Source of the DNA: Aplysia californica
Taxonomy: Eukaryota
Assembly (NCBI RefSeq): GCF_000002075.1
Contig: NW_004797283.1
Location: 1,021,581 to 1,085,580, forward strand
DNA: 64,000 nucleotides
Direction: 5' to 3'
The notes beneath the pieces were generated by a model. It was not told the origin of the DNA. It did not search any database and was given only the letters and a program-made list of their open reading frames with translations. Each line of letters starts with the position of its first letter. Within the stretch, counting starts at the first letter, position 1. The position numbers and the translations under genes were made by a program. Positions 9,067 to 35,400 of this stretch are shown piece after piece.

Positions 9067-9090
9067 AGTTTCAGTTTCAGTTTCAGTTTT
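9067..9090 (+). promoter_or_regulatory. Tandem ISRE/IRF-E-like element
   Basis: AGTTTCAGTTTCAGTTTCAGTTTT matches AGTTTCNNTTTC in overlapping copies and lies upstream of an antiviral sensor gene. Confidence 0.5.
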
Positions 9091-9099
9091 TGACAGTGG

Positions 9100-9318
9100 G
9101 GCGTTTTTAAGTTTTAGTTAGAATTGGAAGAAGATTCCTTCCAGTTTGGTAGGCCTACTAGCAGCCTAGGAGACCTTGGCTTGTGTCTTGTTCTCCTCAA
9201 CAGTGAACAGCCTGCAGCTATAGACTAGACTATAGAATAGCCTGCCAACTAGGCTCTCCCGCTTCAAATCGAGAGAACATCAAAATTTTGTGCAATTTTA
9301 TCAACTGTGGTCAGTGTG
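9100..9318 (+). other. Putative non-coding first exon (5' UTR) of the RLR gene; start approximate
   Basis: ATG-free stretch just downstream of the ISRE-like array, ending at the donor GTG|GTGAGT (GT at 9319). It would splice to the TTTTCAG acceptor at 14407. Confidence 0.4.
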
Positions 9319-12083: not shown

Positions 12084-14429
12084 GCCCCCGCGCGCGGTAA
12101 TTCCAGTAACCTCAGCCCTGATCTGATATTCCTCTAGGGTTATTTCCGGTAAAACAAAGGGGTGAGAATAGCGAGTCATGGGTTATTCTCACCCCGGGTG
12201 AGAATAACCACTTGCTTGAGCCAAAAGTGGGTAAAAAAAAATAATAGGGGATTTACAGCATATACCTAAAACATTTTAAAGTTGACATATTTTCTTAATT
12301 ATAATCAAGCAATCCAAGCTCTTTTCTTCATTTCCTTTTTTTTTTCTTTTATAATATTATTTCTTTTTTCTTTTCTTTTTTTCCCCCTCTCCTTTCCCCT
12401 TCATCTTGAACATTTGGAATTTGGAGCCAAAAGAAATTCTCCGGGCCAGACACGATCCAAAAGAGCCAAATTTCATGGAGTGAGAATAACCACTTCCTAG
12501 CCTAAAATGGGTTAAAAAAATAATAGGGGATTTACAGCATAGAATCTACACCTAAAACATCTTAAAGCTGACATATTTTTCTCAACACCACACTTTAACA
12601 TTTGCCTAAGAAACACTGCAATTCAAGAGATGGGATGAGTTCAAGACTCATGTGGTGACGTCTAGACAGCTGGGGGATTAAATTTACACAAGCTTTTACT
12701 ACAATGTGGGGGCAGGGCGGTGTTGCTGTCTCAAAATGAGCAATTTGTAGACAAGGTTACTGTAGTCGTTTTTCCTAGTGATCATGTGTGTGCATCCAAT
12801 ATCCAAGAACTTTTTAATAAGTGGATCAAGATTTTTAGCGAGAAAAATTTTGTTTGTTCGCTGGCCTGAAGAAGTGCCATGCAAAGTTTTGTGGGCTTAG
12901 GTAAAATCCTAAATGAGCAAGAATGTTTTCAACGCGGTCATATGAAAGTGAACAAGCTTAATTATTTTGTACCTGGGCATTATTTCACTTTCACTCCCGT
13001 TTCATGCTCAGGTGCACTTTTCTTGCTCATTTTAATATTTTACACGAAACTATTAGTTTTTGAAATAGTTGATGGTTTTTATTCAAACTATATTACTTGA
13101 CTATCCTATACTTTGGACTTCATTTAAAAATTGTGATGGTTTCAGGGGGGTGGGGGGGGGGGCGTGCCCCTCGTGTCCCCTCCAGTATTTCCGCGTAATT
13201 TGACATTCTGTGATAAGGTTTTTAATTTTCATGGAAGCAATTAATTGGTTTGCAACAGTTTTAGTGGCCGTAATAATATGTATTTTGCAGCCAAAGAGAT
13301 GCATGGTGGTTTGATCCTTTAAAGTAGGCTACTGCATCAATCCAAGGCGGGAAGGACAGTAAATATATGTGTATTTCTCTGATTATGTCCCCAAAAGTAC
13401 AAAATAAAATAAACACATTATTTCGTTTTATTTTGCTCCTGGGCTGTAATTAGCCCGATTTATCAAACAACTTTTGTTTATAAAAATAATTAACCTAAAT
13501 TTTGTAATTTTTTGGGTGCCAGGGAGTCAAGTCAGATTTTAAAATGTTTAGAATTTAACCAGCCTTTCCAGACCAGTCCCTGGCCAAAATTGTTCAGAAC
13601 CGGTATTGATCAAGATGATTATTCCATCACTGTCGCAGTTGCTGTCATTGAAACCAACTAAACCATATTTTCCTAGAAATGCCAAATGAGTGTTGGCTGT
13701 GCTCTGGTATGGTTTGCTCATCTATCATCTGCTGTCCTTATTTCTCCTCTTTTTTGTGTTTGTTACTCGCTTGTAACAGTAACACCTCTTATCTTCGGCA
13801 CTTGTTTCACCTTATAGTGTTGCAAGTGCCGTAAAACTTTAACCTCTACTAAAATTGAGATGCCAAAATGTTTTATTAACTATTTATTTTGACAGTATTG
13901 TGCTTTTATTTGTAATCAGACCCTGGAGCTGTAAGCTACAAAACCTGCAAAGATTTGGAAGTCAAAATCTGTACTTATTAGGGAAACTTTTATGCCGGGT
14001 AAAACAGCATTCATGTTGGTCCATGTTTCTTTCTTGTAAATGAGTCGTGCTAGGTTCAGAAACGAGGCAATAAATTATGTGCCTATTTTTTGTGCATTTG
14101 AGTGTATGAAATTTGTTTTGGTGTGTTATGTGTACATAATATATACAAGTGTGTTTGCTTGTTTTTCTGTGACACTTCCATAATTGTATGCTGTTTTAAA
14201 TATGGGAAACCAAGACACTAGTTGTTGCATCTTATCATGCATGAGCCATGGTACACATTGTAAATTGTATGTGCTGCTCTCTGTGATGTATGGAGTCTCA
14301 CTGTTTTTCCACAGAGTAATTTCATGGTAATTAAGGCATGGTCACCATCCATCCCACTTCATATTTTATGTTTATGCTTTAAAGAAAAACCTTACATTCT
14401 TTTTCAGCTACCTTACCTTTGGCCCAAAA

Positions 14430-14460
14430 ATGGCAGAAGCAAGTGAGGGGATGGAAGAAT
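14430..14460 (+). CDS. RLR coding exon 1 (MAEASEGMEE)
   Basis: Acceptor TTTTCAG at 14407, AAAATGG start context, donor GTAAGC at 14461. Phase 1 joins exon 2 in frame. Confidence 0.7.
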
Positions 14461-17400
14461 GTAAGCATTTTATAAGTACTCTTTACCTTAAATTGTAAAT
14501 GAAGAGTAAATTAGCATGTGTGACTCAATCTATTTGTTTTGACAATGTCAGCATAATGCTCTTGTTATCCCAGATTCATTGTTATGGCATGTACAGCAAT
14601 GGTAGTTTTCTTTGCTGTGTCGGTTATAGTATTCATCTTTAAGTGGTATTCCTTTCAGTTGGATCATAGTTCAAATTACAATCGATCGAACCTGTCCGAG
14701 ATGGAATGACACGGAAGCCAGGAAAAAATTCCCCAATAGACATTTTCCATCCTGAACAGGGAAATTTAGGGAGAAGGTTGGGGGGGGGGGGGGGGGCGAG
14801 GGGAGAGACATTCATTGGGCCAGCCTGTATGAAAGATGGCATATCAGAGCGGCTAGGATAGCACTTTAGCACTTTGGAGGTGTGCAGTTTTCACTACCAT
14901 TTTCCGACCAGACAGGCGACCCTTGATTCCCCCTAAGCTCATGTAGGCTGGCCCACTGAACGTCTCTTCCCTCCCCCTATTGTGTTTTCAAATCAGAGCT
15001 CCAAGTACTGTGCATTTAACATATATTTACAAGATTGGATCCAACACTGAACCTTGGGTCACTCCAAAACCTAGTTAGAAAATTGATGAAAGAGTTATAT
15101 GCAACCACAGAACCAGTGAAGAACTCTACCAGACAGGTCGAACGTGATAAAGAATCGTCCAATTTCAGTAAAAGAATAGTGTAATCTATAGTGTCAAACA
15201 ATTTCTTTATATAAAGGGAAGGTTGGAGATAAGCCTTAAATTCTTGAGCTCGTTGGGGCAAAGATTTTATTTTTTAAAGTAGGGAGATAACTAAAGCCTG
15301 CTTTAATGATGATGGTAACACTCCAGACTGAAGAGACTCGTTAATGACGGAAGTTATAAACTCAAGAACACTGTCAAGATGTGTGATGAACGGTGGTGTT
15401 GGAATGTGATCAAGACTACATACTTTATGGGATGAGGACATTATGATCGATCTTACATCTTTTTGTGTAACACACCTAAATTCATAAAAAGTATGCCCCA
15501 ATCAGCCAATGCCACCACTTCCCTGCCTGTAAAAAGGATTCGAGGAACTTATTTCTTGGCTTGACATATGATTGGGGTGGCAGGCAGTTGTCAAATTAAT
15601 TTCACACTTTTGGCCACCCAGGAAAGTTTTCAGACTGGAGTGCCTTTCAAGCACTTTCGCAAGCAATGGTGAGATTTCACACCCACACCACCCTGATCAA
15701 CTGCACTACTCACGGCTGACGTGGATGGGGTAACAGTTACCCCTAAACCATATCCCTTCTTCCCTTCCTTGCCTGGTGACATGGCTGGCATGAAAGTTAG
15801 AGCCAGTGGAACCGAACTTGTCTGAGCGGGCAAAGCATTTTCTGTCTTTGACTTGTCAAAACCCTGCAAAGGGAAGGGATTTCTCCTCCAATTCTGGGTT
15901 GAGCAGGTTTCTGTCTTTGATGATGTATTATAGTGGAATTTATCAAGGGGGAAGTGAGGAGATTCCGTTATGATAGGTTTCCATCTTACACAGGTTTTTA
16001 TTTAAGGCAGGTTGAACTGTATTGAGCCAACTTAGAATACTGACTAAAATGCTCAAAGCTGTACATTCCATTTTGTTTTGAAAGTATTTGTGTTCCTTAT
16101 GAGATTATGATACTTGTAAACTCAGACAGGTCTTTTCAGAAACTGATTTTTTTTCTCAGTTGTTTAAATAAAGAAAAGGGAAAAATGCTGAAATGATGCA
16201 CCAAAGTCATTTATGGTATATGTATAATTTTGAGCATTGTTTTTCTTGTAGAATATTCCACCTCTTTTAAGAGCTTTCCTTCTTGCAGTTATGCAGTGTG
16301 TCTATTTCATAATTTTTTATTCACTGTGAAGCGTTCAAAGAAATTTTCTCTCGAACTTTGGACTGGTTGGGTGTACATCAGCGCAGTGTTTCTAAATGTT
16401 ATAATACTTATGTTTCCATTCAGGACTTACTGGAAAGACACAATGAAGTTTCATGATGGCATGTTTAATTGTTACTAATGCAGTTAAGAGTCATTGAGAG
16501 CCTAAGTACCTGTAGTATAAAAGCTATTAGATTCTTCTCTGTTAACATGTTTCACTTAGAAGGTAGAAATGTGAGTCTTGCATGAACAATTTTTTTATAT
16601 TGAGTATCTCAGTCTTTATGCTGAGCTGTTTTATCCCTCTTAGCTTGGGTTGACAATATCAAAGCAGCTGTCCTGAGTTATGTATATTGTGTCTACAGAG
16701 GCATAAAACATTTACAAATACATGGTAATGAGGACTCCAGAGCTGTAAACAGAAAGACACCACCTTCCATCAGCTCCTTACACATTTCTTGCCTTTTTTT
16801 ATATAGATCCTACAGAGCAAATATTTTTAATGAAATAACATTGAGGTTTCCAATGTTCATACTTTGTTTCAGTTTGTGATAATTTCTTCAAAATAAAATT
16901 GACGGAGAAAGAGTTTCAAAGTCCGGCCTTCGAACGGCTCCTGGAAAATGGAACCCTACATAGGAACGAAATAGAAAAAATAAGGGAGGAAGATGAGTTT
17001 GATGAAAGAGAGGACCTATCGGACACTAAAGCTGGATTCTCTGATGATGATGAGGCTCAAGGAGGTGAAATAGTTTTTTGTCCTAATATTGTGTTTTGTT
17101 TTTATACAGAGTATTCTAATCAAGTTATGTTGTGAAGTTAGACTTGACTCTGCTTTTTGAAGGAGATTAATCGACTCTAGGAGCAGGCTCATGTTTTAAA
17201 AGGCACCATAAAGACACAGATTCATTGTAATAAGAATTATAAAAATCTCATCTAACAGCTTGAAAATTGATTGTCATCCTTGCAATGGTTCTTCGATATT
17301 CTACCTAAAAGAAATGCAAAAAATGTTCAGTGGCAGCAACTTTAACTTCCCAGACAAGTCACCAATATTCTCCTTACTGTTAGATCACATAGGCCAACAT

Positions 17401-20400
17401 AATAACATCAGGCAGAGGCTGTTTTAAGGCTGATTTCTATACAGAATGTCAAAATCTGTTATGTTTCAGGAGCAGTGGCATTCACATATATATTTTTTTA
17501 AATACTAGTATCATACGATGATAACACAAGTATATGTGTCACGACTCTCTGGAAGCAGGTGCTCGCCTTTTTGGGGAGGGCAGATGGAGTTATTTGTATC
17601 GTTTTAAAGTTTGTTCATTTTTCTAGCATTTAACGAAAAGAAGTCAAGATATTTGCATGGAGGTGGAGGTCACCTGGTGTCAGAGGTGAAATTAGCAAGA
17701 AAATGGCCACCAAAGTTTAGTGATTTCCAAGGTTTGGGTGTCCTTTGAAACTGCAAATTTACAATTTTTGTACCTTTCATCAACGTCTTTCAGTAAAATC
17801 CACACAGAAATGTTTTCTTAAATTGATATAAAAGATGTTGAGCCAAACCAAGAAAATTTGAAGAAAAAAACATGCCCAAGAGCCAGAAAAATGCCAGATT
17901 CCTTGGTTACATTATTTTGATGAGCACCTGATTTCACCACGCTGCCTCACATATATATCCTTTGCGTTTTGAGAAACCATTTAATCCCTTTCAGGAGTGG
18001 ATGGTCATGAAACTGATCTTCGCCTGCGAGACTATCAGTTCGAGCTGGCGGAGGAGGCTGTCAAGGGCTACAACACTGTCGTATGTGCTCCTACTGGCTC
18101 AGGAAAGACACGAGTTGCTACATACGTCATTCAAAAACATTTGGAGAAAGAAGGTACTTTTTTTCTCACTTCAACCAATGTGTAAATAACTTTGATGTAT
18201 GAAGAATTTTTTGTTATAACAGCAAATATTGAGGCTTTTTTAGAGAGTAATATTTGATTGCTGGTCACTGAACACATTAACCTGTTCAGTGCTGAAGCGT
18301 TTCCCTTTACATTTGTACTGACAAGACAAAATGTTCATTCAAAAAATAATTAAGCAAAGCCATATTGTATTTTCCCATATGAGAATAAGAAAATACACAA
18401 GTTGCAAATAAATGTTCTAAAGTATCCTTTATAAACTAGCAGAAAAACATGTCAGTAGACCAGTTATGGAGAACATAGCAGCATGAATGGTTGGCGGGTG
18501 CTCTGGTATGGCTTGCTTCCTCTCTCCTTTCAAACAATTATCATCCTTATCCTCTTACTCTCTTGTAACACCTTTAATCTTTGGCACTTATATGACCTAA
18601 CTGTGTTGCAAATGCCGTAAAATGTTTACTAAAACAAATGAACACAGGAGAGTACATGATACATTTACACAGCATGACACATTTGCTGACCTAATTGTGT
18701 TGCAAGTCCCATAAAGTACTTACTAAAACAAATGAATACAGGAGAGTACACATGTCTACACAGCAGTGAAGACGTTAATAACTGTATCAGCAATCACATT
18801 TGTAACACACTGTCACTGTCTATTTTTAACAGTAGCTAATATTCTTGCTTCTCACTTCCCTCTTAGGTTTGTGTCTTGGGGTGGGGGATTTCTTAACTCT
18901 TTATCTCCGAGGGGGGTAAACCCACTATGCCGGGTCCTTTTTTTGGTACTAAATCTAAAAATAACAAAAACATCTATAAATAGGTCATTAACTCGCTCAA
19001 TCCCATCTCGGTCAGCTTGCGGGCTGCATTCAATCCCTCGACCGAGATAATTTGGTTCTATAGTTGTATTCAGTATACTAGTTATTTAATTTCGGAAATC
19101 AGCCTCAAGTTTTATATAAAGTCAATTTATTATTTCTCTCTCCAATTCTGCCCAGAGGGGTGCTGGAATTTTGTTTCTACTGTCATTACACGTGCAGAAA
19201 TCACGGTTTTCATAAAGGCACTTTCAGCACGTTTGTTCACAAAGATCAGCTGAGCATGTCTCGCAATCGATTCTCTCTGCCTTTCTCACGCATACATTTT
19301 TTTTTATTCATGAAAGTATTCAACAGTCTTTATTATACATGACATACAATACATAGATCTAGACACTCACAAGCATATTTGAATATCATTGTAGGCTTGT
19401 TCCTACTCACTTGTCCATGAAACAAAATTATAAGCCCCCAAAAATGCCAAATTTGTACAACACTCCAAAGCAAAACTACTAAAGCTACATACTTCAAATT
19501 TGGCTCGTCTATAGATCCATCTTAGGTTGTACTTTGTGCCAAATATCAAAGCAATTATATAATATTTATGGTTACAAGTGGGCCCTTACATCATAAGTGC
19601 CAAAATGACCGGTTTTTGGGGTACAATTTAGGGAAAAACTCCTGGGATTGAGTGAGTTAAATCAAAACCAGTGAACCTATTGTGATAGTTTTTCCTCTAA
19701 TGAATAAACTCCTAATATAAGAGACCTGTTTTTTGGGGATTTCCGAAAAGTAATTTGATGTTGACATCGTCGTAAAGGAAAGCGGCCGAGCCGCTGTCAT
19801 GGGCTTACCGGCACAGCCGTTCCGACCGCGCCCAGTGGCTTGTCGAACATAAAGAGTTAATGCATTACTGGATATTTCTGAGAAACTCTTGTAGCAAAAG
19901 AACTCTTTAAATTCTGTCAGGCATGTATTAAAGGATGCACTAAAGCATCAGCGAAGGTATCTGTGATCCTCGGGTCCTGTGACTTTTGATCAGACACTTG
20001 AGACTTGATCCATGTTCATGACGGGAGTGTTTTCTCTTTCAGAAAGCCCTGGTTCATGGTTCTTGCTCAGTATCTTAGTTTTCTTCACCCTTCACCTTCA
20101 CCTGTCCCATAGACTGGATGTCCATCGGGTGGCTTTTGAAGATTTGGCCACCAGCTTGCTCCACTCCTTCCGGTCTTCAACTTTCCTGAGCATGTCTTTG
20201 AGGTCCAGGCCTGTCCATTCCTTGATGTTGTCCTCCCAACTCTTCTTCGGTCTGCCTCTGCTCCTTTTTCCTTGGACGCTGCCTTGCAAGATTTTCTGGA
20301 TTAAGAATATTCTCAGAAGCTTTGAGTTGACTCTGGTCCAAGCTGAGTGCTCTGAGTCTGAGATAGTTATCATCACACACGAGGCATTGAACATTCAGTT

Positions 20401-23400
20401 CACTTGACTGAGACAATACCTGTGTATGTGAAAAATTGGTCTTCCCTTTGTATCAGTGCACTTTGAATACAACAAAATGCTCATCGGTGGCATTGATAGT
20501 CTAGTGGTTAGACTACTGTGCTCATTATCGTTACAATGTGGGTTTGGGGATTTGAGACTCAACTCGATCTTACGTTGTGTCCTCGAGAAAGGCACTCCTC
20601 ACAAACTTTCTCATTTGGCTAAGTCATATCAGAGATGGACATTAAATTCGGAGATCAGGTCTTGTGGATAACCTACCAGTGTTGCAGGGGGCATTAATCC
20701 TTTACATTTCGCATATATTTATCTGCTCATTACATAAAGTTACTGCTGGGGAGGCTTTGTCAAAAAGCTAATGTCAATCCCAACATTCTGACTGGGTGTT
20801 GACTGTGAATCCAAAGTGCAGCAGTCCCCTGAAAGTATGGTTCACTTTTATTTGAAAAGTTCTTTGAATACTCTGGCTTTTGAGAAAGAAGTTCATGATG
20901 GGGTTTTTTTACAAGAAGGGGGATTATACAATGAAATAACAATACGTGGGGCAAATAAGCAATTTAATTCTTGGGAAGAAAGAGTGGAAAAGCAAATCAG
21001 TCTTAGGTAGATGGTTATTTACTGTGTGCATAGAACATTCTCAGTGTCTGTGTTCACATTTATGATTTATTTCCTTCCATATGAAAGAGAAGAAAGATAA
21101 AGAATGACGGAGTGAGTGGATTTGTACAGTTACTTTGCGTGAATGTGTGCTTGCTTGTTTGTATATAAATTGTGATACTGTTTTTAATTTTAAATGATTT
21201 TGTAGTTATGGTAGAAGGGAATTGTCTTGATTTCTTATAAAAATGTCACAGAGATTATCAAGAGGTATTCAGTGTCTCATACCCTTTTTGTTGTTTGTGG
21301 AAAATCCTGAACACTTTTGATCTTTTGAGCAACACTGATGTAATTTGTTCCTTTTTTTCTTTTTTCTAAAAATCTAAAAAATTTAAAGAAGGTTTTTTTT
21401 TGGAAAATTATAATAATACTGTTCTTGAAAATTAATGCTTTTTATTTTCCTGCTGCATTAACTTGAACTTTATGCTCCGTGTTTTATTGAATCACATTTC
21501 TAGAAGCTACGAATGCAGTCAAAAAAGTTGTGTTCCTTGCACGAACCGTTCCTCTTGTGAAGCAACAGTATGATAACCTACAACGACATCTTGGAAATAA
21601 ATACAGCGTAAGTGGTAATTAAATATTCTGCACCATTTTGTGTTCTCTTGCGTCTTGTTTTCTTGATTTGTTAGAAACAGAAATCAGAAGCAATGAATAA
21701 AATGAGATGTTCCATCCTCAAGGAAACTGCCCTGCTATGGCATTCATGAGATACAGGGTTTTTTCACACTTTTCTTACATATTGTTATTATATTTGATTA
21801 TTAAACTTGTTTTGTGATATATTAGGACGCTGCAAGCTATGTATGTTTATTTTCAGTAAATTGGATAAGTCCAATGATTTAATGTACTCATCTTGTTTCA
21901 TAATAACAATAAAAATTGCATGCCTGTAAGTTCATGCTCATAATCTAAATGTCACTAACCAAGCTTCTTTCTGATATTTTGAACAAATTGAGTAAAGGAG
22001 TTTAGTTTATCCATTTGATATTTTTGGGGACATTTTTGGTCAGTTGCAATAATTGCGCACTAAGAAACCTGTTCACTTAACTGTGGTGATCGTGGAATGC
22101 CCTACATAGTTATGAAACGAAGGTATAAATATTTGGTGAAATAGTTGCACTCTGTCCAGAATCACTCTGTATAAGTCAACATGAATGATGATATTTAATC
22201 GAGAAAGATATGAGATATTTTATTCTCAAGAATACTGGGGACAGCATAGCCTCACTTTTGTTCAGATCTGCTCCTTACAACTTTAAAAACGCCATGACAT
22301 TGCATTATGCACAATGGTACAAGGGAACCCGCAGTAATGACATTCTCTGTTTTGGGAAATAACATAGCTGCACTCGCTAAAGCTTTAAACATATCTTATT
22401 CAGTATGATAGGATAGATTCTCTCATGGTTTTTCTTGCAAAGCTCAAACTCAGTTTCTTATTACTGTTTGATTTTCCGTTTATTTTTGCCTAAGGTACTT
22501 TCCATTAAGCAAAAGGGTGACGAAAATTCTTAAGTGGTGGACTGGTCAGGAAAAGCAAGGAAGTGACACGCATGCAATGACTTTTATGCTTCCTTTTTGC
22601 ATAAATAGTTAAAGATCTAAAAAAAAAATTACGCAAGTAAGAGGATTTGGGCCTCTCGTGTAATTAACCACATAACATGGTATGTAACTAAAACTAGTTA
22701 GCTGAAAAATGATTATTATTAAGGGTCATGCAATGTGAGTTTTTGGGTGAATGACACCATTATCTATTTTGAGTGATGTGTGGAACTGTTAGTGCCTTGA
22801 AAAGAGTTTTGTTTGTGGGGCTTTTTTTCATGTTTGTTAATTCTTTCAACAGTGTTGTTAGAAATAGAATTAATTGTTAGGACTCATAAGTTTATCTTTT
22901 ACTTTTGAAAAAATCATGTCAGGTATGTTTTCCTTTTTCTCTTTTTTTCCCATAAGGGTCACATGTGCCCGTTTTTTCATATCTAGTTAGTGCTCTTGCT
23001 CTTGCTCGCCCAAACTCCCTGTGTTAAATGCAAGATTATAGTTTTGTTTAGGATGACAGCTTTTATGCTCTGGATCAGGATAATAGAAGGCAGTTCACCA
23101 GGTAGTCAAATGGTGTTTCAAAAATAACCTTATTAATTGCATACAAACAGTTGTTCGAATTTTGTCACCGTAGTGTTGCAGTTTCGTCGCATGCCTGTGG
23201 ATTCAGCGTAGTAGTCCACAGTGGGGACGCTTTTGATGTTCTCAGTTTATTGGTCTTTTTAGGAGTAAGATGCCCTCCTTGTGTTTATTTGTACAAGTTT
23301 ATTTACTATTTTCAAACCGGCCAAGATATTTAGCTGATAATGACGGCTATATAATAGATTACATCAATACAACACTTTTCTGCTTCCAGAAGGCAAAAAA

Positions 23401-26400
23401 TATAAAAGGAAAAAGTTGGGTTCTTTGTACCCATGCAACCATATCCAGCAGCTAACCACAAGGCTATAAATAGTTTTTTAAACATATTTTTGGGTTAAAT
23501 ATGACATTACTGGGGTCTGGTCTAAGTCTGAGATTCTAGGAGATTTGTTTTTTTTTAAAAAGGATTTGCTGTTTACCCAGAAAGATAGTCACCATCACTT
23601 GTTGGAAGAATAACATTGAAGGAGCATAGACAAAGAGAGGCCAGATTATACCCAAACCCCCACCCTACCAACTGTCGTCAAAAGTGTTCAGTTTAACAAC
23701 CCTGATTCTGAAACTTCAAGTCAAAAGTCTTCCTGTCTCACTCACCCATGTCACTTTCTCCACTGAACCCGACCCCTTTTCCAAAATGCTGTAAATGTCA
23801 CATTAGATTTTAAGTTGGCTCATAATTTGTGCATGTGCTGTATTGACTATCCATTAATTGTCATTTTTTTTTACCTTCATTATTTTACCTTTATTTTTGC
23901 GACAAATGGCAATGAACTTATGCTAAGATTAGATCCTCAAAGTCCATAACAAAACTGGAACACGCTGAAGACAAAATTGAAACACATACTCATTTCTTAA
24001 TTAAACAGTCTAAACTTAATGGCTGGCAAGTCGATGGCAAGTCGTTTTAATTCAAGCTTATTGAATTATCTAAACTGAACATAAATGTCTTCAATTTTAG
24101 TCTCACAATATCAATAAGCCACTATTGTACAAAGCAATGATAGCTTTCCCACAATGAAGCTGTTTTAGTTTTATTGCTAAAAAGCTTTGCAGATGACGTG
24201 ATGAACTAGGCTTTGTTAACAAGGGCCTGTGTCTTGTTGGCTGATGTGACAAATTATTAATTTGATTGCCCTTTATTAGAAATGAGTTATTCAACATGAT
24301 TTTTAGCTATTTGAATGGTTTCTTGAAATACAAGTTGGGATAGGATCTCGGTGGGTGCATTGTCACAAAATTGGAACACTGGCAGAGCTGGTATCATACA
24401 GCAGACCTTATACAGATTTCTCTTATTTCTAGCTTGTATTTTGTTTTATCGTTTGTTATCACAAAGGGTGATCTTATTGTCCAAGTTGGACAATGAATTG
24501 GAAGCACCACTACTTTTTAAATTACTTTTTTATGTTTAAAGTAGTTTTAGAACCTAACCATACTACAGACTTCAACATAAGTTAAGGACCACCCTGACAG
24601 ACAGCCCTGATTTGGTGTTTTTTTAAAGACAGCATGGAATATTTCAAAATTTTTTGCTCTGAAAGTGTTAATGGGTTACCAATGCGTACTGCCAAGCTTC
24701 CTAAAGGAGCAAAATCATCACGTGCTGCAAGGAAGTCCTCAGGGAATTTTAGCCAAATTTGCTGTTTTTTATCGACTTGTGTGCGACACCATGGACATTC
24801 CTCAGATAAAATTTCTGATGCACGTCATAAACGGACATACGGTCTTAACTGTGCTCATTTTGGTGGCAATATAAGCCGCTGTTTGCGCAAAATCCAGTAT
24901 CGCATCAACGTGCCACCAAGACGAAAGCTGAGAGACTTTGATCGTGCCAGAGCTATGGCATGGCTGCAGGATGGAGTTGGAGCCCGAGAAGTTGCCAGAA
25001 GGTTTGCAGTGTCACACTCTGTCATTGTCAGCCTGAGGCAACACCATCAAGCTACTGGATCAGTCCAAGAACACCCACGTGCAGGTCGACCCAAGAAGAC
25101 CTCTCGGAGTGTTTGCAAGTGGTCCTTAACTTTTGTTGAAGTCTGTAGGTTTACCCTATTCTATATCTAATTACAGGGGAGTCTGCTTAAACCCAACACT
25201 TATAATCCAAAAACAGACGTAGATTGAAAAAAAATTAAATCCCGGATTTTTTTCTTGTATTTCAGCAACCTTTCTTCCTCAAAAACCTGGCTTAACCGAA
25301 AAAAAATTATATTTCCTGTTGACTTCAGTTTACACAAACTCTCCACTGTATGTCATATTGTCTCATTAATTTCCTGTCATCTTGTCTCTGAATAGATCCT
25401 GAAGGTGTCAGGAGGAGAAGAGATCAGCTTGAAGCTTCACATGATAATCGATACTTATGACATCATCGTGATGACACCTCAGATCCTGTTGAACCACCTG
25501 AACTTTGATCTCATCCCGAGCCTTGAGATCCTCTCCCTTGTGGTCTTTGACGAGTGCCACCACACAAATAAAAAGGAGACCTACAACATACTCATGCAGG
25601 CCTATCACAAGACAAGAATGGAGAACGGTGGTGAAAAGATGCCTCAGGTTATGCATTTATCTGTATATCTTAACCTTCTCCCTCCTAATCTTCCCTGGAT
25701 TATGTTATAGTTCTGAATTGTTATGGTAATGCTCTTTGTACGAAAGACATGAGTTTGATTCACGCGTCTGGAAGATTTCTTATTGAAAATGTTTGTCTTT
25801 CTGATAGGACGTAGACAGGCCATGGAACAAAGCAGCTCTCCTGCAAAATGTTTGAAATTGTGATCATGAAGGGGAAAACATTTGCAGCAACTTGTTGTTG
25901 TTCAAATTAGTAAAATATAAGAAACATTTCTTCTTAAAGAGATATGGGTTCAGTAACTGTTCACTTAAAGAGAGACAGAGAGAGTTGAACATACCTTAGC
26001 ACCCACTAACCACTCACATGATGAGCTTGTAACCAGCCTTGACTTTATTTTTTAAATAGTTGCTTTGGGATGAAGAGTCATTTTTATCAACTTTTACACA
26101 AATTGATGGTTGTAATTCATAGGTATTATCAAAAACATTAGTCTTATTTATTAACTGTTTTTGCCTGGTGATGTGCGTTCCTGCTGTCAACATCGATTTT
26201 CAGCTTAGCTTGTTAAACAGGACAGCAGTCTCCTGTCTCAGTGTTACTGGACTCACGGTCTAGATGTAGCCCACTCGTGACATTTTTCGGACCCCAGGTC
26301 TTTGATGGTGAAGTGTTCCTAGCTTTCTTCGTTCCCTATATTCCCCGTCTTACTCATAGCTTTTAAAAACTTGCAAATCTAAGTCAAAAAGTGAATACCT

Positions 26401-29400
26401 TTTTCTCTGCCTTTTTAAAGTCATTCTGGTGTTTACGTTTTGCAAGGGCATATGATCATCTGCAAGAATAGACCTGTTTTTATTGATCGCTTGCAAGCCT
26501 AGCAGTATACTAATATAATCACCAGCGAATTTGATACCAATATGCGCTTTTTTTGTTTTCAAAACGAGTCCACTGTGGTTAAGGCTAAATTTCTTTACAG
26601 AAAAATTAGAATCAAATGACCAGTGGGATGTACATGTAACGTCTTTTAAGCAACCATGAACAACAAATTTAGCTTATTTCCATGATGTCCATGGTACAGC
26701 ACAAAGCTAAAAATAGCACATTTTCATGATGAACTAGCTATGTAATAAGGCAACAAAGGAGTTGAGGGGAAGAAAACTACTGTTTCCTTTGAAATAAAAT
26801 TTATAGGTAATTTTTTTTCCAGTAGATTTGAACAGCTCCAAGCTGAAACTTGTTGTACCCCAATTGCTTTGAAAATTGAGAAAATTATACTCTTACAAAG
26901 AGTGCCTATTTAACACAACGCAGATTTCAACTCCTCAAAAGTGGTTGAAGACAAGTTGCAACCAAATAAAGTCTTTCTTTTTTGTGATTTTAAATGTCCT
27001 GACAGTGTTCTGCTTATTTCTTAAGGTAAATGGTATTACAAATATGGCAATAAGAAGACAGAAATCTTTTCGTAATGTACAAAGTTTGCTATGTATGTGT
27101 TTAAGATAAAAAGGAAATACATATATAGGTGTAAGAAAAAATTCGGGACCTGAAAATCTGTTTGCTATCTGCATGTTTTGCAATGTGCGTGTTTGCTATA
27201 AATAGTGTGGGTTTAACGCCCCATCAACATTATTAGGTTATTTAAGAGGCAGGACATCCAAGTTTTGACGTCCGTCTACGAAAGGGCCGAGCCAAGTGAA
27301 AAATTTGTGTAAAGTGCCTTTTCCAAGGACACAACGTCGGACAGAGCTGAGGCTCGGACCCCCACACCCTCCTTGACTGTATTCAGCTGGAAGCCATAAA
27401 GTTCAGTTTTAGGTGTTGCAAAAGTTCAAATCTTCCTTTTAAACTGTTCATTTCATAAAAGATTTTACTTTAAATTTCAGTAGTTTTAAGTGAACTCATT
27501 TGTACTTGCAGATATTGGGACTTACTGCCTCTCTTGGTGTTGGAAATGCCCAGACAATAGATGGGGCGTATGAGAATATAGTGAAAGTTTGTGGGAATCT
27601 TGATGTCAGAAAAATTTCCACTGTCTCAAAACATGTTTCTGAGCTGCAAAAGCATACGCCAGTACCCACCGAAGGTAACTCCTTTGATAATCCATAGTGT
27701 GTCATATTTCTGTTCTTTGATCTCTTTTTAGAGGCTTTCGTGGTACTTACCCGTGTTTACTTGTGTGAAATATTTGTTGCTTTGTCATGAACTTTTTCTG
27801 AACAAAAATTATCCAGTTTCCAATTTTGACAATGATCATCAATTAGTTTTGCTGTTTTGAATGTTTCAGAACTTCATTGAAGTTTTTTGCATAGCCGGAA
27901 TATTTATTCCAGCCCATTTATTTTCATCAAAATATTCTCAGCTCACAGAAGGAGTATTAAAAAAAGCTTGTGTTCAGTCATTTGTATTGGTTCAAAGTGT
28001 CCTAACATCAAGTGTCAAATCGCTGTGAGTTTTTGTAAATGGCTGTTGCAACAAAATATTTTTTTTTTAATGGTTGATTTTGAAAAAACATTATTTTATA
28101 TGATTTTGTTCATGGTAAAAGACAAAACCAGAACTTTGAATAATAAAATCACATGAAAAGTCATCTTGGAATATCATGTTTGAGTCTCTGCAACCAGAAA
28201 CTTCATTGTCTCCTACAATATAATAGGTTATGCAAAGAAAACTGTCGTTGTGTGTATGAAACCTGAGTTTTCAGGTATTCAAGACAGAAGAAAACTCTTG
28301 TACAGGTAATTTTAAGTGATGTCGATACTCCTCTTGGAATTTTTAGACTATTAGTCTTTTGAAATGAGAGTGTTTAATGTTTCAACAAACGACATTTTCT
28401 AGATTCATTGTTAACCATGAATTCTTAATTGTTTCTATTCACAGAGAATGTGAATTTACAACGAAGAGGACTGGATAATTTTGTGGAAAACATGAATAGC
28501 TACATGACAAAAATAGAAAAAAGAATCAAACGACTTGCCGAAGGTAAATGTCTTTCCGTAAAACTCCAGTGGACAGGTTGTTTGTGAGCTCATACTCAGC
28601 TGTAATGTAGAGCGATGTTATTTACACAACATTTGGGTGGGTAGTCACTGGAGTGTGCCACAATAACTTTTTAACCTTTACTCAAAGCCAGGGCACTGAA
28701 TAACCGTAAGCATCAATAATGTGCTACTGTTTCAATTAAATGGTATTATATTTAACTTTTATTATGCCTATCAATGTAAAACAATCTCTCTTTTGTTACT
28801 GATTATGGTGCCTTTTCTTTGATTTTTTTTTTTTTTTTTGTTCTTGCTTCACAACAGCAGACAATATAGATCTGGGAGCTGGCATTGTTATGAGAACCAT
28901 CAAGTTAAGTTAGACGATGGTTCACTCCACAATGAATGTAGCCTTTTTCAATTATTTAAGCGCAGCCCATACTTTATTCTTTCACACACCGTTATTCCCC
29001 TACCTCTTTACCATTTCAAGCCTTTGCACACGACTGCCAAGCAGTCTCTTGAAGTGACATGTGCCAGTGCATCGGCATCATCTCCTTTTTGTTAGTTTTA
29101 GTTAGAGTTTTATGGCACTTACAACACAATAAGGTCATATAAGTGACAAAAAGATTAGAGGTGTTACAATAGAGTAACAAACATAAAAAAGGAGGAGAGA
29201 TCAGGACGATAGATGTTTGATAGAAAAGAAGGAGCAAACCCCACCAGAGCACCCGCCAACCACCCACCATCATCTCCTGAATAACTACTATGTATATATA
29301 TGTCTTTCTTTCTATGATTCATGGTACGAAAAGAGTTACGGAAGTTTAATCTGCTTTTCCCTTTTTAGAAATCTTTTTTCTTAGTTAAATAAATGCCAGT

Positions 29401-32400
29401 TTGAGATGTCTCTGTCTTCTTTGTGTGCAGGTTTTCAAAGTCACATTTTTGTTTACACTGTTATTTTTGGTATAATTGTTTGCAACCAGTTAACTTTCAG
29501 AATGCTTTTATTTCACAAGTCTTTGGTCAGAAAAACAACAGTGCCTTAAATGTATTCTAAAAAATGACTACATAACAACTTTTCTTTAATGGAAACATTG
29601 ATTACAAAATTACTTCACTGCTGAGGGAGACTACTTTGAGCAATAGGTGAAAAATTAATTAAATCTGAGGTTTTGTTTTCAAGTTGCTTGAACAGTTTCA
29701 TTCATTTTGAAAACCCCCTCATACTGTCAGAAAATCAATGTATAGGCCCTAATGGTATAATTCCTCTATTGCTACTGTTCTCAACCTATCACTTTGTTGT
29801 CAGGATTGTCCAGGGAGTTTTTAAGGTTTAATCTTTGACAAAAGAATACATAGCTGATATCATTACACAATGTTCCTCACTTTCTACTGCTATAAACTCA
29901 TTTAATCACATAAACCAACAAAGTTTGTAATCCCAGTCTTCTTAATTTTTAGCCATCCCAGAGAAAAGATAGATACATATTTCCCTGAACTTTGTTTTTA
30001 CTGTAAGAATTGGATGTGTGACCGACTTTTTAAAATTCCCAACAATTCAGTTGTAGTGATATGTTTGATTATTCTTTTTTCAGGCTTAAGTTGTGGAGGT
30101 GTTCATGAAGAACTTAACATGTTGCCACCAGACAAAAAACTTCAAGCCTACAGGCAACGAATTGTCCTTGTGAGACAAGCTGTAGAAACTTGCAAACCCC
30201 AAGAAGACCGCATTAAAGATAAAGGGTTGCTTATCTCCCTGACAAGGCGACTAGAGGTAAGCTGGGCTGCCTATTTTTACCGATTTTCCCAGCAGTTGCC
30301 AATTTTTCATCTGTTCTACTACCATGCCAATGAAGTTATCAAGACTACCGAATTTGTGATGGGCACCATGATGAAAAGGAAAAAAATGGCTCATTTTACA
30401 GTGCTTCCAATCTTCCCTGTTTTTACGGAAATCCATGTATTCTGAAAGGTCCATACTTGCCATCACATTATAGATCTGTCATTTTAAATATTTGGGGACC
30501 ATTATATCATCAGATGGGAGATGTCCCACCAAAATTAAAAGTCGCTTTTGCACAGCTAAAGCAACCTTCCACAAAATGAAACAGATATTCACAAACATCA
30601 ATCTGTCACTGGAAACGAGAAAAGGAGTACTGAAAAGTTACATCGAGCCAATCCTATTATACGGGTGCAAAGCATGGACAATCAATAAACAGCTGGAAAG
30701 AACAATTGTGGTGACAGAGTTGTGGTTCATAAGACGCATGCTACGTATCCCATTGACAGCTAGAAAAAGAAATGAAGAAGTCTTGGTTGAAGCAAACTGC
30801 AGAAGAGAGCTTATGACGAATATAATAAAGCGACAGGCAAATTTCTTCGGACACACAATGCTGAAAGAAACTTTGGAGAATATTGTAACAACAGGTAAGT
30901 TTGATGGAAAGAGAGGCAGAGGCAGACAGAGGGAAAAGATACTGGACAAGCTGACAACATGGCTAGGAGCAGTAAGAACAACAGACACCATTGCTGCAAC
31001 GCAAGACAGAGTGAAGTGGAGGTCCATGGTCGCCCACGCCAGTCGGCAAGGCACCGGATGATGATGAGGTCTAGAGAAATTGTCAGTATAAGGATTCTAC
31101 AGGAGCAGGATAAGACAGCAGTAGAAGAAATTAATGCTAGGATTTATTAAATAAGTGGAAGTGTTCTGAGGTTGTGACATTTAACATTCAAACTTGTAAA
31201 TGAAGAAAAATTAGCGTATGCACTTGGTGATTGTATCACGAAGATTGATGCTCCCAGGTTTGCCTACTGCCGACTGTAAATGATACGATGACAAATTGAA
31301 TTATAGTGGCAACACAGAAAATGCCATTCTCAACCCTCAAACACTACTAAATTTAATCTATTTAGAAGTTAGAGGCAAGCTTTAGGGGCTATAATGAGAC
31401 ATAGTGCGCCAGGTTTAGGTGACCATAGAAAAAAACTCCGGAAAATGGTGGAAATAACTATCAAGGTCTAAAGAGTTAAAACTAGATCTGTGATTCGACA
31501 TAATCTTTTAAATTCAACACTTATTATTTAGTTGTTGATGTCAGAGATTGATAGATTTTCAACGTCACTATGTCCCACGCTCCTTTCAGTCCTACCAACT
31601 CTGGCACTCATTACATGCTCTCTACTATTTTCACTTTTTGCTCTGCCTTGAGGTCCATCTATAAAGTTTTTCCTTCATTAAGTTTTGTCTTACATGGTTT
31701 TGGAATCCATGGTTTTGACAGTTGATGTTCTGGTCTTTCCACAAGCCAATATTAGGATTCATTTTTGTTTTATAGTAAGGGGAGAACTATTTTAAATTAT
31801 CTTGTGAACCTAAGTCGCATAGGACTTCTCGGTGCCCTGTTGCATGTCACTGTCATAAAATGTTTTAATATTGTCTTTATTGGCTCGACCTATGGACTTC
31901 ATCTGTTGTACTATGTTATGTAACTTACTCAGTTGCAGTTTTCAGTTGTATGTACATTCCATCATAATGCCAGTACAAAGACCATACAAACAGGTCATGT
32001 TTGGCTCCAGAGGTCATTGGTCCAGACTGGCCTCAGATGTTAAACAAGTCCCTACTACAGTTAGACAATTAAAAAACCATTACTACAGTTAGACAATAAA
32101 CAAATCATTACTTTAGTAAGACAATAAACATACCATTACTACAGTTAAACAATAAACAAATTATTACCACTATTAGACAATAAACAAATCTTCACTACAG
32201 TTAGACAATAAACGAATCATTACTTTAGTAAGACAAATCATTATTTTAGTAAGACAATTAACAAATCATTACTTTAGTGAGACAATAAACAAATCCGTAC
32301 TACAGTTTGACAATAAACAAATTATTACCACAGGTAGACAATAAACAAATCATTACTTTAGTAAGACAATTAATAAATCATTACAACAGTTGGACAATAA

Positions 32401-35400
32401 ACAAGCCATTACTAGAGTTAGACAATAAACAAATCATTGCTAGAGTTAGACAGTAAACAAATCATTTCCACAGCTAAAAAATAAGCAGATCATTTCAACA
32501 GTGAGACAATGAACACACCATTGCTACAGCTAGACAATAAACAAATCATTTCAACAGTGAGACATTGAATAGATCATTGTTATAGAAATATCATTAACAT
32601 ATTTTTGCGACAGAAATGTTATAAACAGTTCATTGCTGCAGAAGTACATTAAACAAATCGTTGCCACAGAAATACAATAAACACATTATTTGATAGATAG
32701 ATTGTTTAATACTTACATATACAAATAGGTAGTGTGGACAATGTGCAATACACATGCCAACAAGCTCAATAGGTTTCATCTCTCTAGTCTCTTGTCTGAG
32801 AAGAGTTCTGGAATTCACTGGAGGGATAAGATACTGAAGTTCTTGAGAGGGCAAAAGCCTGTAGTATCTTCTGCCTCCAGGCAAAAATCCAGCTTAGATG
32901 GGCAAGGCGCTTGGTTTGAATGCCAAGCACCCCAAGCCATTTCCTACTCAGAACTGGTATGTGGAAAGACAGAACATTGGTGCCCGTAAAAAGAGACATA
33001 AAGACACTCTAAAGACCTCTCTGAAAGATTGCACCATCGATGTGAATGAGTGGGCAACCCTCTTTTGACAGATCACAGCGACATAAAACTATACCAATAT
33101 GGCAGCAAGGTTTTTAAACAAGAGTTTGTAAAGTAGAGGCAGCCAGAAAGGCAAGCAAATCAAGACAATCAAATCCTGACATTGACAAGTGCTCTGTTTG
33201 TGGAAAATTCTCAAAAAGAATAATGTTATAAGGTCACAAGCAAATTCATAGGAAGATTTAACCATCTATGTTTAGGTAGACAGGCATACCACTTTAAGAA
33301 AGAGAAAGGCAATGCTACCTATGGTGGCTTGTCACATCTGTGATTATTACCAGCTGCCTGCTATTATTTCCTTCACTTTTGTCTACAACTTGTCTTCCTC
33401 CTTGAGTATTAAAGCCTAATTAAAGGTCATCATCACTTCCTAATAGACAAACTATTGTTATAACTTTGTATGAATATGATTCCTCAGGTTTGCAGTGAAG
33501 CTCTGGACCTGTATGATTTGGCAGATACACAGGAAGTTCAGAAGTTCCTACTCAAAAAAATCATGGATGTACCAGATGAGAATTTAAGAGGTTGGTTGTA
33601 TTAAGTCTTTTCAGACATTGGTCTAGTCATTGAAGCTTATCCAACACCTAACTCCTGTGTGTCTGCATTTGGACCTAGTGTAGTTCTATGTTTTTGTTAA
33701 TTTGCTCAAGCTGTCACAGTTACGCACTTCTCCATTGTACACGAAAGAATGAATAACGAACTGCGTTCGTGGGCTAGTTGCTTGCATGTAAATGTCATAC
33801 CTGTCAGTAAGAGTAGTGAGGTGAATAGCTAGCCCTATGCAGTGCCTTTTCTGCTACAGTTAGAAATACTTCACATAATATGCGCAAGAGATGTCCCTTC
33901 ATAATGTAAATGCAATCCAAGTGTCTACAGATCATGAATATTTGTTTCTGATTTCCTGTCTTTCCCTTATCAAATTTGGACTTGTGAAATGTAGAAAGAT
34001 AATAAAATGCTAATTGTATATAGTTTCTTTATCAGACCATTTGATTTTTTGAGAATTAAAGAGAAGTCAAACTCATTCTGTTGATATGTAAGTGTACTTT
34101 ATAAGGTGTTGTGTGTTCACTGATTGAGAAGGGTAACTACTTGCCTGTGTTTTCCTTCCATTCTCAAGAGACTACAAATACTGGCTTGGGAGTGAGTAGA
34201 GCCTGACTTCACAGCAGTATGCTCCTAGTTAGTGACAATGCTGTGTGTATGATAGAATTTGGAATTTTAAGATGTTGACACTAAACCCTAATGGATCTTT
34301 TTAACAAGAAAACAAATTATATTATAGCACTATATCAGAGTAAAGAAGTGAGGAAGAATGCGAAACTGGTACACGAAAGTAAACAGCAGTCTTTTATTTC
34401 AGAGCAGCATATGATTGCATGCTATTTTTCCTTAAGAAGGGTTACACCACGAGATGATGTGCAGTGTTCCTTAATATTGCTGCAACTCAGCCATTGGATG
34501 ATGCAGGACTTTGAACTTACCATTTCCGTTACTTCAACTTTAGAATTATATATTATATAATATATCTCTTATATAATATCACTCTTATATCTGGTTTCGT
34601 TATCCATGAGATGAGAGCTCTCATAAGCTTACCTGTTTCTTAAAATTTAACAGAAACGTGTTATGTTTTGGGGGTTTTCTTTCAGAACTGCATGAATTTT
34701 TTAAGGTTAGCAAAAAGTTGAGGAAGCTTCATAATTTCTTTTGCACCTTGGATTTTTTTTCCTCTCATGCATGTTAGCATGAGTCCCTTTATATGTGTTC
34801 CAACACAGTGGAATCAAGTGTGTGTCAATTTTGGGCATATGGAGTTGTTGACATATTCTTAAACTTAAAGCCTGTTTACACATCTAATTGCCTCTACTCC
34901 TCAAGACAACAATTAGAACAAACATGCAACTATTACCGAATGGCATCATGCATAAGAGTTAACGCTCAGATGCTACTGGATAGCTAACAACAACAACAAC
35001 AACAACAACAAGCCTGTTTACTTGCCTTGCTTTTAATGAAAAAACACCTATCAGTCTTGAACAGAAGTTCCGATATTTGCAATTAAAGGAGGCAGGGGTC
35101 ACCTGGTGTCAGGTAAAATCAGAAAAAAAATGGCTGCCAAAGTTTTGTGACTTCTAAAGTTTGTCAGTTTGAGTTTGGAGACTGAAAATGTATGTTTTGT
35201 GTGTCTTTAATCAACATTTTTCCATAAATTCCACACAGAAATGTGTTTTTGAATAACCACACAAGGTGTTGGGCTACCCCCCCCCCCCCCAAAAAAAAAT
35301 GGTTTTAATATTGCCCAGGGGGTGGGAAAATGTTAGTTTCTAAGCTTTCATTATTTTGACGAGCACCTGATTTCACCACAGTGCCTCTTGTCCTGACTTT

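What the first reader, a model, noticed from the sequence alone, without database searches (positions are those of the whole stretch)
14430..18040. CARD-less (LGP2-like) RLR architecture in an invertebrate, with a possible half-CARD vestige
Seen: only about 84 aa precede LRDYQ, too short for the tandem CARDs of RIG-I/MDA5. The segment AFERLLENGTLHRNEIEKIR resembles the CARD helix 2-3 pattern (L...G.L...E.E.I) and then turns into an acidic linker. Known: vertebrate LGP2 lacks CARDs and acts as a regulator. Inference: an independently derived, ATPase-competent but MAVS-uncoupled regulator, effector or RNAi cofactor. Caveat: the frame is open from the acceptor at 14408 to the ATG, so upstream coding exons (for example in N-gaps) are not excluded.
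Basis: partly seen in the sequence, partly recalled or inferred. Interest (0 to 1): 0.7.

Follow-up and report, generated by a model that had tools for sequence, protein, structure and literature searches.

The report
Sea-hare CARD-less RIG-I-like helicase
This is an already annotated sea-hare antiviral RNA-sensing helicase that really lacks the usual signalling domains, a state already in print for sea hares; its supposed 'half-CARD' is instead a small module peculiar to the snail and slug versions of these proteins.

Summary
The window holds an Aplysia californica RIG-I-like receptor gene. Fifteen GT-AG coding exons (14430-62880) give exactly NCBI's 868-aa 'probable DHX58', with 84 aa before LRDYQ.

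The CARD-less state is real and already published for Aplysia RLRs, along with the absence of MAVS (PMC9334734).

The 'half-CARD' is refuted. The N-terminus scores at shuffle level against five CARD profiles. Residues 17-47 match a predicted beta-alpha-alpha-beta module of heterobranch RLRs (0 of 2000 shuffles reach its score). In the Aplysia paralog LOC101853474 that module lies downstream of two divergent CARDs that Pfam misses. So the gene lost both CARDs and kept the linker.

It is not an LGP2 ortholog (AU p=0.00025). The catalytic ATPase residues are intact, but two basic motif IV/VI positions are lost. A triple ISRE-type repeat lies 5.3 kb upstream.

Most likely role (inferred): an IRF-inducible, LGP2-like accessory of the CARD-bearing paralog. 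Untested lead: both full-length Aplysia RLRs carry a pLxIS-type word in a disordered tail, in an animal reported to lack MAVS, STING and TICAM.

The parts
9069..9084 (-). Triple IRF-E/ISRE-type repeat; candidate IRF-responsive promoter element of the gene (inferred)
   Evidence: Only match in 64 kb; 0.08 expected, 8 of 100 shuffles had one. ISRE consensus recalled.
9095..9148 (+). Candidate untranslated first exon (start approximate); donor GTAGGC at 9149; no ATG; in-frame stop when spliced to 14408
   Evidence: sequence only, no transcript seen
14408..14460 (+). Exon with acceptor at 14408, ATG at 14430, codons 1-10, phase-1 donor
16873..17064 (+). Coding exon 2 (aa 11-75): module plus acidic linker
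16890..16982 (+).
17037..17054 (+). FSD acidic motif (aa 66-71), shared with CARD-bearing and CARD-less gastropod RLRs
   Evidence: pattern in 35 of 43 gastropod RLRs, one of them a chance hit
17995..18153 (+). Coding exon 3 (aa 75-128): Q motif and Walker A
21504..21607 (+). Coding exon 4 (motif Ia)
25396..25647 (+). Coding exon 5 (motifs Ib, Ic, DECH)
27512..27674 (+). Coding exon 6 (motif III)
28445..28543 (+). Coding exon 7 (Hel2i start)
30084..30256 (+). Coding exon 8 (Hel2i)
33488..33590 (+). Coding exon 9 (Hel2i; last helix about 14 aa shorter than in relatives, as in Aplysia paralog P0122)
36547..36780 (+). Coding exon 10 (Hel2, motif IV with S466)
38370..38537 (+). Coding exon 11 (motifs V and VI, M559)
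48321..48562 (+). Coding exon 12 (pincer helices)
51721..51803 (+). Coding exon 13 (CTD, Zn cysteines 642 and 645)
60658..60915 (+). Coding exon 14 (CTD, Zn cysteines 695 and 700)
62535..62880 (+). Coding exon 15: about 110-aa disordered tail and stop codon
   Evidence: (pLDDT<50 for 760-868)
62860..62874 (+). pLxIS-type word (aa 863-867), one residue before the C-terminal residue; lead only

Best explanation
A heterobranch-gastropod RIG-I-like receptor paralog that arose from a tandem-CARD gastropod RLR by losing both CARDs, while keeping the downstream linker (a ~30-residue beta-alpha-alpha-beta module and the FSD acidic motif), the helicase, pincer and Zn-binding CTD. Shown here: gene structure, absence of CARDs, linker origin of the segment, and non-orthology to LGP2 (this structural part I put at about 0.9). 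Inferred mechanism: IRFs switch the gene on through the upstream ISRE-type repeat during an interferon-like response. The protein binds double-stranded RNA without strict 5'-triphosphate selection and cycles ATP. Having no CARD, it cannot start a CARD filament, so it coats the same RNA as the CARD-bearing paralog LOC101853474 and tunes it, helping loading at low level and competing at high level. That is LGP2's job reached by convergence. The module and FSD motif probably serve as a contact or regulatory surface common to both types; their partner was not identified.
For: Exact match to an 868-aa NCBI protein over 15 GT-AG exons. Short N-termini with Met close before the same module in 8 heterobranch genera. 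Module profile from 10 non-Aplysia proteins scores the window 17.5 bits at aa 17-47 (0 of 2000 shuffles) and the CARD-bearing P0004 17.3 bits at aa 229-260, after its CARD pair at aa 5-175. AF2 pLDDT 86 for the module with two strands. Heterobranch clade 98/97 inside a gastropod clade 100/100 whose other members mostly carry CARDs. Union with LGP2 rejected, p=0.00025. Catalytic residues and four Zn cysteines intact. RIG-I positions 853, 858 and 888 are replaced while 830 and 861 are kept (their roles recalled). Sole triple ISRE-type repeat upstream. A transcript that I infer to be this gene's is in the Aplysia antiviral co-expression module (PMC8195618 supplement). LGP2's biphasic role as summarised in PMC8260672.
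Against: No functional data; co-assembly with the paralog is analogy. The protein is the most deviant heterobranch RLR tested (9 of 104 highly conserved columns changed versus 1-5 in seven others; S466 where 65 of 65 have R/K; M559 where 58 of 61 have R/K; shorter Hel2i), so ATPase or RNA coupling may be impaired. It has a long tail, which most of the other short-N relatives lack. In the leave-out test the module scored only weakly in CARD-bearing P0030 (8.1 bits) and not in P0003 or P0005, and a lizard RIG-I scored 6.3 bits. The promoter and first exon are unverified.
Confidence: 0.5

Rival explanations
1. Direct antiviral effector or RNAi helper: it translocates on or sequesters viral dsRNA, or assists Dicer, with no link to the CARD-bearing paralog.
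For: Several CARD-less paralogs per genome versus one or two CARD-bearing ones. PMC11103948 relays that a CARD-less planarian RIG-I acts without a classical MAVS. Aplysia has RNAi genes listed in PMC9334734 (figure legend only).
Against: It does not group with the two nematode relatives (long branches). No RdRP or DRH-type N-terminal domain was found. Motif IV/VI losses argue against vigorous translocation.
Confidence: 0.2
2. Sensor and adaptor in one: RNA-bound oligomers present the disordered tail, TBK1/IKK-epsilon phosphorylates the pLxIS-type word, and a SMAD-domain IRF docks there, bypassing CARD and MAVS.
For: L-x-I-S word at aa 864-867; chance 0.04 anywhere in the shuffled tail and 0.003 within the last 12 residues. 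The same word occurs in the tail of P0004, in register in a weak alignment (p=0.034). A related phi-S-x-I-S word occurs in 4 of the 5 non-Aplysia CARD-clade tails examined. Aplysia has two non-canonical IKKs and five SMAD-domain IRFs but no identified MAVS, STING or TICAM (PMC9334734). pLxIS definition from bioRxiv 2022.12.18.520954.
Against: Post hoc pattern. The alignment p-value is one of 8 pairs and does not survive correction. A strict LxIS occurs in only 2 of the 35 tails scanned, both Aplysia. No orthologous tail from another aplysiid was available. That passage describes pLxIS docking for vertebrates and its absence in shrimp STING.
Confidence: 0.13
3. ATPase-poor decoy under relaxed constraint: it binds dsRNA passively and dampens the response.
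For: Long stem branch (0.83) for the Aplysia pair; 9 of 104 conserved columns changed; loss of basic residues in motifs IV and VI.
Against: All 15 exons are open and the catalytic core and Zn site are complete. Several deviations are shared with the paralog P0122, so they are old and have been tolerated.
Confidence: 0.13
4. Incomplete gene model: CARD exons exist upstream, in N-gaps or outside the window.
For: Frame open from the 14408 acceptor; three N-gaps before 6986; CARD-bearing Physella P0030 nests among short-N proteins; sensitivity for single small exons is incomplete (7 of 24 control pieces at E<0.05 with one profile).
Against: NCBI model starts at the same Met. The paralog P0002 and relatives in 7 other genera start just before the module. 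No CARD-like segment among 2766 stop-free stretches of the window (best E 0.73), while 5 of 8 pieces of the paralog's CARD region were detectable. Candidate promoter and non-coding exon lie downstream of all upstream gaps.
Confidence: 0.04

Closest known systems
Aplysia RLRs LOC101847784 / LOC101853474 / LOC101853805 (PMC9334734)
   Same: P0004 is LOC101853474. This gene is, by exclusion, LOC101847784 (the other helicase+CTD RLR); the accession could not be looked up directly. The paper says all three lack CARDs, as in Biomphalaria, and that MAVS was not found.
   Different: My profiles show that LOC101853474 does carry two divergent CARDs (54 bits, E 3e-17), which the paper suspected might be missed. 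This gene is the truly CARD-less one. The module and the tail word are not mentioned in the passages I read.
Vertebrate LGP2 (DHX58)
   Same: Helicase, Hel2i, pincer and Zn-CTD without CARDs; the NCBI name follows this.
   Different: Not orthologous. It has an 84-aa N-terminal region with a folded module, versus roughly 5-12 aa in two LGP2 proteins inspected, and a 110-aa C-terminal tail.
RIG-I (DDX58) and MDA5 (IFIH1)
   Same: Same core fold; best Foldseek matches are RIG-I helicase-RD structures (E 1e-48, TM 0.87 by target).
   Different: No CARDs; 5'-triphosphate pocket positions partly replaced; shorter last Hel2i helix.
'V2-type'/LGP2-like RLRs of other invertebrates (PMC8998645, PMC11103948, PMC8260672, amphioxus LGP2 cited in PMC9680064)
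   Same: CARD-less RLRs reported in lophotrochozoans, abalone, oyster, planarian, corals and amphioxus.
   Different: The module was found only in heterobranch-type RLRs, so the loss is lineage-specific.

Membership tests
RIG-I-like receptors (RLR) | SF2 DExD/H helicase with Hel1, Hel2i insertion and Hel2 | tested here: met
   Pfam PF00270, PF18119 and PF00271 above cut-off; AF2 model and Foldseek
RIG-I-like receptors (RLR) | Pincer helices and Zn-binding C-terminal domain | tested here: met
   Helices 578-629; PF11648 at 35 bits; four cysteines conserved
RIG-I-like receptors (RLR) | dsRNA binding and RNA-stimulated ATPase | not testable with these tools
   Catalytic residues intact; S466 and M559 deviate
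RIG-I/MDA5-type signalling RLR | N-terminal tandem CARDs | tested here: not met
LGP2 (DHX58) orthogroup | No CARD | tested here: met
LGP2 (DHX58) orthogroup | Descent from the vertebrate MDA5/LGP2 lineage | tested here: not met
   AU p=0.00025; heterobranch clade 98/97
LGP2 (DHX58) orthogroup | Modulates a CARD-bearing RLR on dsRNA | not testable with these tools
   analogy only
CARD/death fold (for aa 17-47) | Sequence-profile similarity to CARDs | tested here: not met
   hhalign probability 0.15-1.05% against five CARD alignments, control 99.2%
CARD/death fold (for aa 17-47) | All-helical bundle segment | tested here: not met
   Two strands flanking two helices in both AF2 models; prediction, not a solved structure
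CARD/death fold (for aa 17-47) | Structural match to solved folds | tested here: inconclusive
   41-residue model too small for a clear call
Nematode Dicer-related helicases (DRH-1/3) | Phylogenetic affinity and Dicer association | tested here: inconclusive
   Two nematode rows fell outside the gastropod clade on long branches; Dicer binding untestable
pLxIS adaptors (MAVS/STING/TRIF type) | pLxIS word in a disordered region | tested here: met
   aa 863-867, pLDDT<50
pLxIS adaptors (MAVS/STING/TRIF type) | Conservation among orthologs | tested here: inconclusive
   Strict word only in the two Aplysia RLRs; variant word in four others
pLxIS adaptors (MAVS/STING/TRIF type) | TBK1 phosphorylation and IRF recruitment | not testable with these tools

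The most novel reading that the evidence does not exclude
In heterobranch gastropods, reported to lack MAVS, STING and TICAM but to keep TBK1/IKK-epsilon and SMAD-domain IRFs, the adaptor job has moved into the receptor. This CARD-less RLR signals through a phosphorylatable IRF-docking word at the end of its own disordered tail, with the lineage-specific N-terminal module as an assembly or regulatory surface. It would be a MAVS-free sensor-adaptor fusion rather than an LGP2-like bystander.
Probability: 0.12. Interest if true: 0.8.

Novelty: already known. Interest (0 to 1): 0.3.

Why it matters
As posed, little: the gene is annotated and the CARD-less state of Aplysia and Biomphalaria RLRs is published. 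Two corrections are useful to specialists. First, heterobranch genomes hold both a divergent tandem-CARD RLR that Pfam misses and truly CARD-less paralogs, so 'all Aplysia RLRs lack CARDs' is too broad. Second, they share a small N-terminal module that matched no Pfam family and that I did not find described. If the tail word proved to dock IRFs, it would answer the open question raised in PMC9334734 of how sea-hare RLRs signal without MAVS.

Tried and rejected
Half-CARD reading: rejected.

A missing small exon in intron 9 to explain the short Hel2i helix: no tblastn hit, and the paralog shares the gap.

Fold searches with the 41-residue module model gave no clear match: VIA best Z 2.8, rmsd 3.4, 36 aligned, to YefM, 8 of 48,161 chains at Z>=2; Foldseek best E 0.76. 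This shows neither a new fold nor a different one. Pfam, PDB sequences (best E 0.67) and the Atlas gave nothing usable for the module or the tail.

Complex prediction of aa 11-72 with aa 82-757: no verdict (score 0.01, alignment not used); not counted either way.

No TRAF2/3- or TRAF6-type words in the window tail (patterns recalled). Rfam: 0 matches. The bacterial promoter scan is uninformative for an animal.

One versus several CARD losses is unresolved. Holding the Aplysia pair with the 17-row short-N group is not rejected (p=0.48; group named after seeing the tree, and it includes CARD-bearing P0030), and the careful tree leaves the heterobranch base open.

Errors corrected: one search had a mis-sliced Mya row (dropped later); the upstream-frame check was off by one base (redone); one search printed the last exon two bases long (true end 62880).

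Trees used 48 of 68 rows; the 20 dropped were redundant, partial or long-branch. The careful mixture-model tree did not finish (one search shows the quick one).

An oyster 'LGP2-like' paper that I recall was not found in the library and is not relied on. Unchecked: RefSeq accession and isoforms of P0001, transcript evidence for the first exon, aplysiid orthologs, one of the 11 hits, and the viral and metagenome contig collections.
Full report
Identity and gene model. [quoted passage not shown] Fifteen coding exons from 14430 to 62880, all bounded by AG and GT, translate to P0001 exactly. Pfam finds the helicase, Hel2i and CTD families and no death-fold family at E<=10. AlphaFold2 with a 47-sequence alignment gives a confident core (mean pLDDT 78.9) whose best structural matches are RIG-I helicase-RD structures, plus a disordered tail at 760-868.

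Is it really CARD-less? I built four tandem-CARD profiles from session proteins (non-heterobranch gastropods, heterobranch long forms, reptile RIG-I, vertebrate MDA5) and scored 49 N-terminal regions. The window scores -1.0 to 2.0 bits. The other full-length Aplysia RLR (P0004, LOC101853474) scores 54 bits over aa 5-175 against the non-heterobranch profile, and long forms of Physella, Bulinus, Elysia, Plakobranchus and Candidula score 26-53 bits, although Pfam sees no CARD in P0004. None of 2766 stop-free stretches of the window matches any of five profiles (best E 0.73). As controls, 5 of 8 exon-sized pieces of P0004's CARD region were detectable with a profile that left P0004 out, and 7 of 24 pieces of three proteins with a second profile. 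A whole CARD pair would probably have been seen; a single small exon might not. No N lies between 6986 and 49084. The only triple ISRE-type repeat in the window is at 9069-9084 (0.08 expected), followed by an ATG-free candidate exon with a donor at 9149 and an in-frame stop. This is sequence-only evidence for a promoter downstream of all upstream gaps. Relatives in 8 heterobranch genera start with Met shortly before the same segment; these are predicted proteins.

What the 'half-CARD' is. The segment belongs to a ~30-residue motif aligned in 16 heterobranch RLRs. A profile from 10 non-Aplysia short-N proteins, run on 60 other N-terminal regions, scores the window 17.5 bits at aa 17-47 (0 of 2000 shuffles reach it) and P0004 17.3 bits at aa 229-260, about 65 residues past the last conserved motif of its second CARD. 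CARD-bearing Physella P0030 scores 8.1 bits at 281-306. P0003 and P0005 were not significant, and the best non-heterobranch score was 6.3 bits. Profile-profile comparison with five CARD alignments gives 0.15-1.05% probability against 99.2% for a control. AF2 predicts strand-helix-helix-strand (pLDDT 86 alone, 70-78 in the full model), whereas CARDs are all-helical (established knowledge). A profile search of 1.84 billion proteins gave 11 hits: four named heterobranch RLRs, six unnamed proteins that read as RLR starts of the same kind, and one not inspected. After the module comes an FSD acidic motif, present 20-40 residues before the Q motif in 35 of 43 gastropod RLRs with or without CARDs. 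The N-terminus is therefore the retained CARD-to-helicase linker, and both CARDs were lost whole.

Descent. In the careful tree (48 of 68 rows, 681 columns) the protein and its paralog lie on a long branch within a heterobranch clade (98/97), inside a gastropod clade (100/100); LGP2 groups with MDA5 (100/98). Union with LGP2 is rejected (AU p=0.00025). Union with the other short-N heterobranch proteins is neither shown nor rejected (p=0.48). Independent origin is supported; the number of losses is open.

Catalytic and RNA-binding state. Against 66 homologs, the Q motif, Walker A, DECH, motif III, motif V, Q557/R561/R563 and four Zn cysteines are intact. S466 replaces a basic residue found in 65 of 65 and M559 one found in 58 of 61. 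Nine of 104 highly conserved columns deviate, versus 1-5 in seven other heterobranch proteins, and the last Hel2i helix is about 14 residues short in both Aplysia paralogs. In the alignment to RIG-I (chain offset +38) positions 830, 851 and 861 are kept and 847, 853, 858 and 888 are replaced, which suggests dsRNA binding without strict triphosphate reading (residue roles recalled). ATP turnover is likely but may be weakened.

Mechanism. The best reading is an IRF-inducible, LGP2-like accessory of the CARD-bearing paralog; the steps after gene structure and descent are inferred. A transcript that I assign to this gene by exclusion and accession offset (XM_005090142.2) has membership 0.78 in the Aplysia co-expression module rich in interferon-pathway orthologs, while its sister variant falls in another module at 0.48 (PMC8195618). 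The boldest reading comes from the tail. It ends in a pLxIS-type word (chance 0.04 anywhere, 0.003 in the last 12 residues). P0004's tail has the same word in register in a weak alignment (p=0.034, one of 8 pairs). Four of five other CARD-clade tails have a related phi-S-x-I-S word (per-tail chance 0.015-0.09). Aplysia is reported to keep two non-canonical IKKs and five SMAD-domain IRFs but not MAVS, STING or TICAM. The pattern was noticed post hoc and the strict word occurs in only 2 of 35 tails, so it is a lead.

Prior art. PMC9334734 (passages; supplement rows) states that the three Aplysia RLRs lack CARDs as in Biomphalaria, that MAVS was not found, and that CARDs might be too divergent to detect. 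PMC8998645 (parts 1-2 of 8, passages, and supplement part 1 of 2) includes three Aplysia RLRs and lists the LGP2-like V2 type among lophotrochozoans; its Figure 1, which assigns types by species, I could not see. PMC11103948 (passages) reports CARD-less RLRs in abalone, oyster and planarian; PMC8260672 (passages) in corals and anemones; PMC9680064 (passages) cites amphioxus LGP2. PMC13563047 (passages) only cites the planarian work, and bioRxiv 2022.12.18.520954 (passages) supplied the pLxIS definition. Nine searches showed no description of the module or of a tail motif in gastropod RLRs, but subscription journals are mostly outside the library.

Verdict. What remains new is modest: a heterobranch-specific linker module, hidden CARDs in the sister gene, and a testable tail-adaptor lead. 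Interest 0.3.

Noticed in passing
P0004 (Aplysia LOC101853474) aa 5-175: Carries two divergent CARDs missed by Pfam, contrary to the published statement that all Aplysia RLRs lack CARDs.
   Followed up: yes
window 62860-62874; P0004 aa 1236-1240: pLxIS-type words in the disordered tails of both full-length Aplysia RLRs; a phi-S-x-I-S variant in the Bulinus, two Elysia and Physella long forms.
   Followed up: partly
window 41358-45386 (-), intron 11: Uninterrupted 1342-aa ORF with endonuclease, reverse transcriptase and RNase H domains: a LINE retrotransposon that looks intact.
   Followed up: partly
window 46094-47067 (+), 53163-56874 (-), 30474-31061 (+), 3216-3695 (-): Fragmented LINE-like ORFs; RT or RNase H hits for three of the five pieces scanned.
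   Followed up: no
window 24598-25170 (+): HTH_38 hit, probably a decayed DNA-transposon fragment.
   Followed up: no
window 12983-12992 (-): A second, double IRF-E-type word 1.4 kb upstream of the first coding exon; double words are near chance level (14 found, 6.7 expected).
   Followed up: no
window about 7340-7400: YY1-like word at 7367 with ETS-like words nearby (motifs recalled): a possible alternative or unrelated promoter.
   Followed up: no
P0030 (Physella, 1240 aa): CARD-bearing, yet nested among short-N proteins: a chimeric model, gene conversion, or repeated CARD loss.
   Followed up: partly
P0003/P0011/P0123/P0129 (Bulinus); P0005/P0006/P0015 (Candidula); P0013/P0018 (Lymnaea): Equal 'longest contig' values suggest tandem clusters of one CARD-bearing and several CARD-less RLRs (inferred).
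   Followed up: no
P0002 and P0122 (Aplysia): Overlapping partial proteins of a close CARD-less paralog, at zero distance in the tree but listed with different contig lengths: a split or duplicated model.
   Followed up: partly
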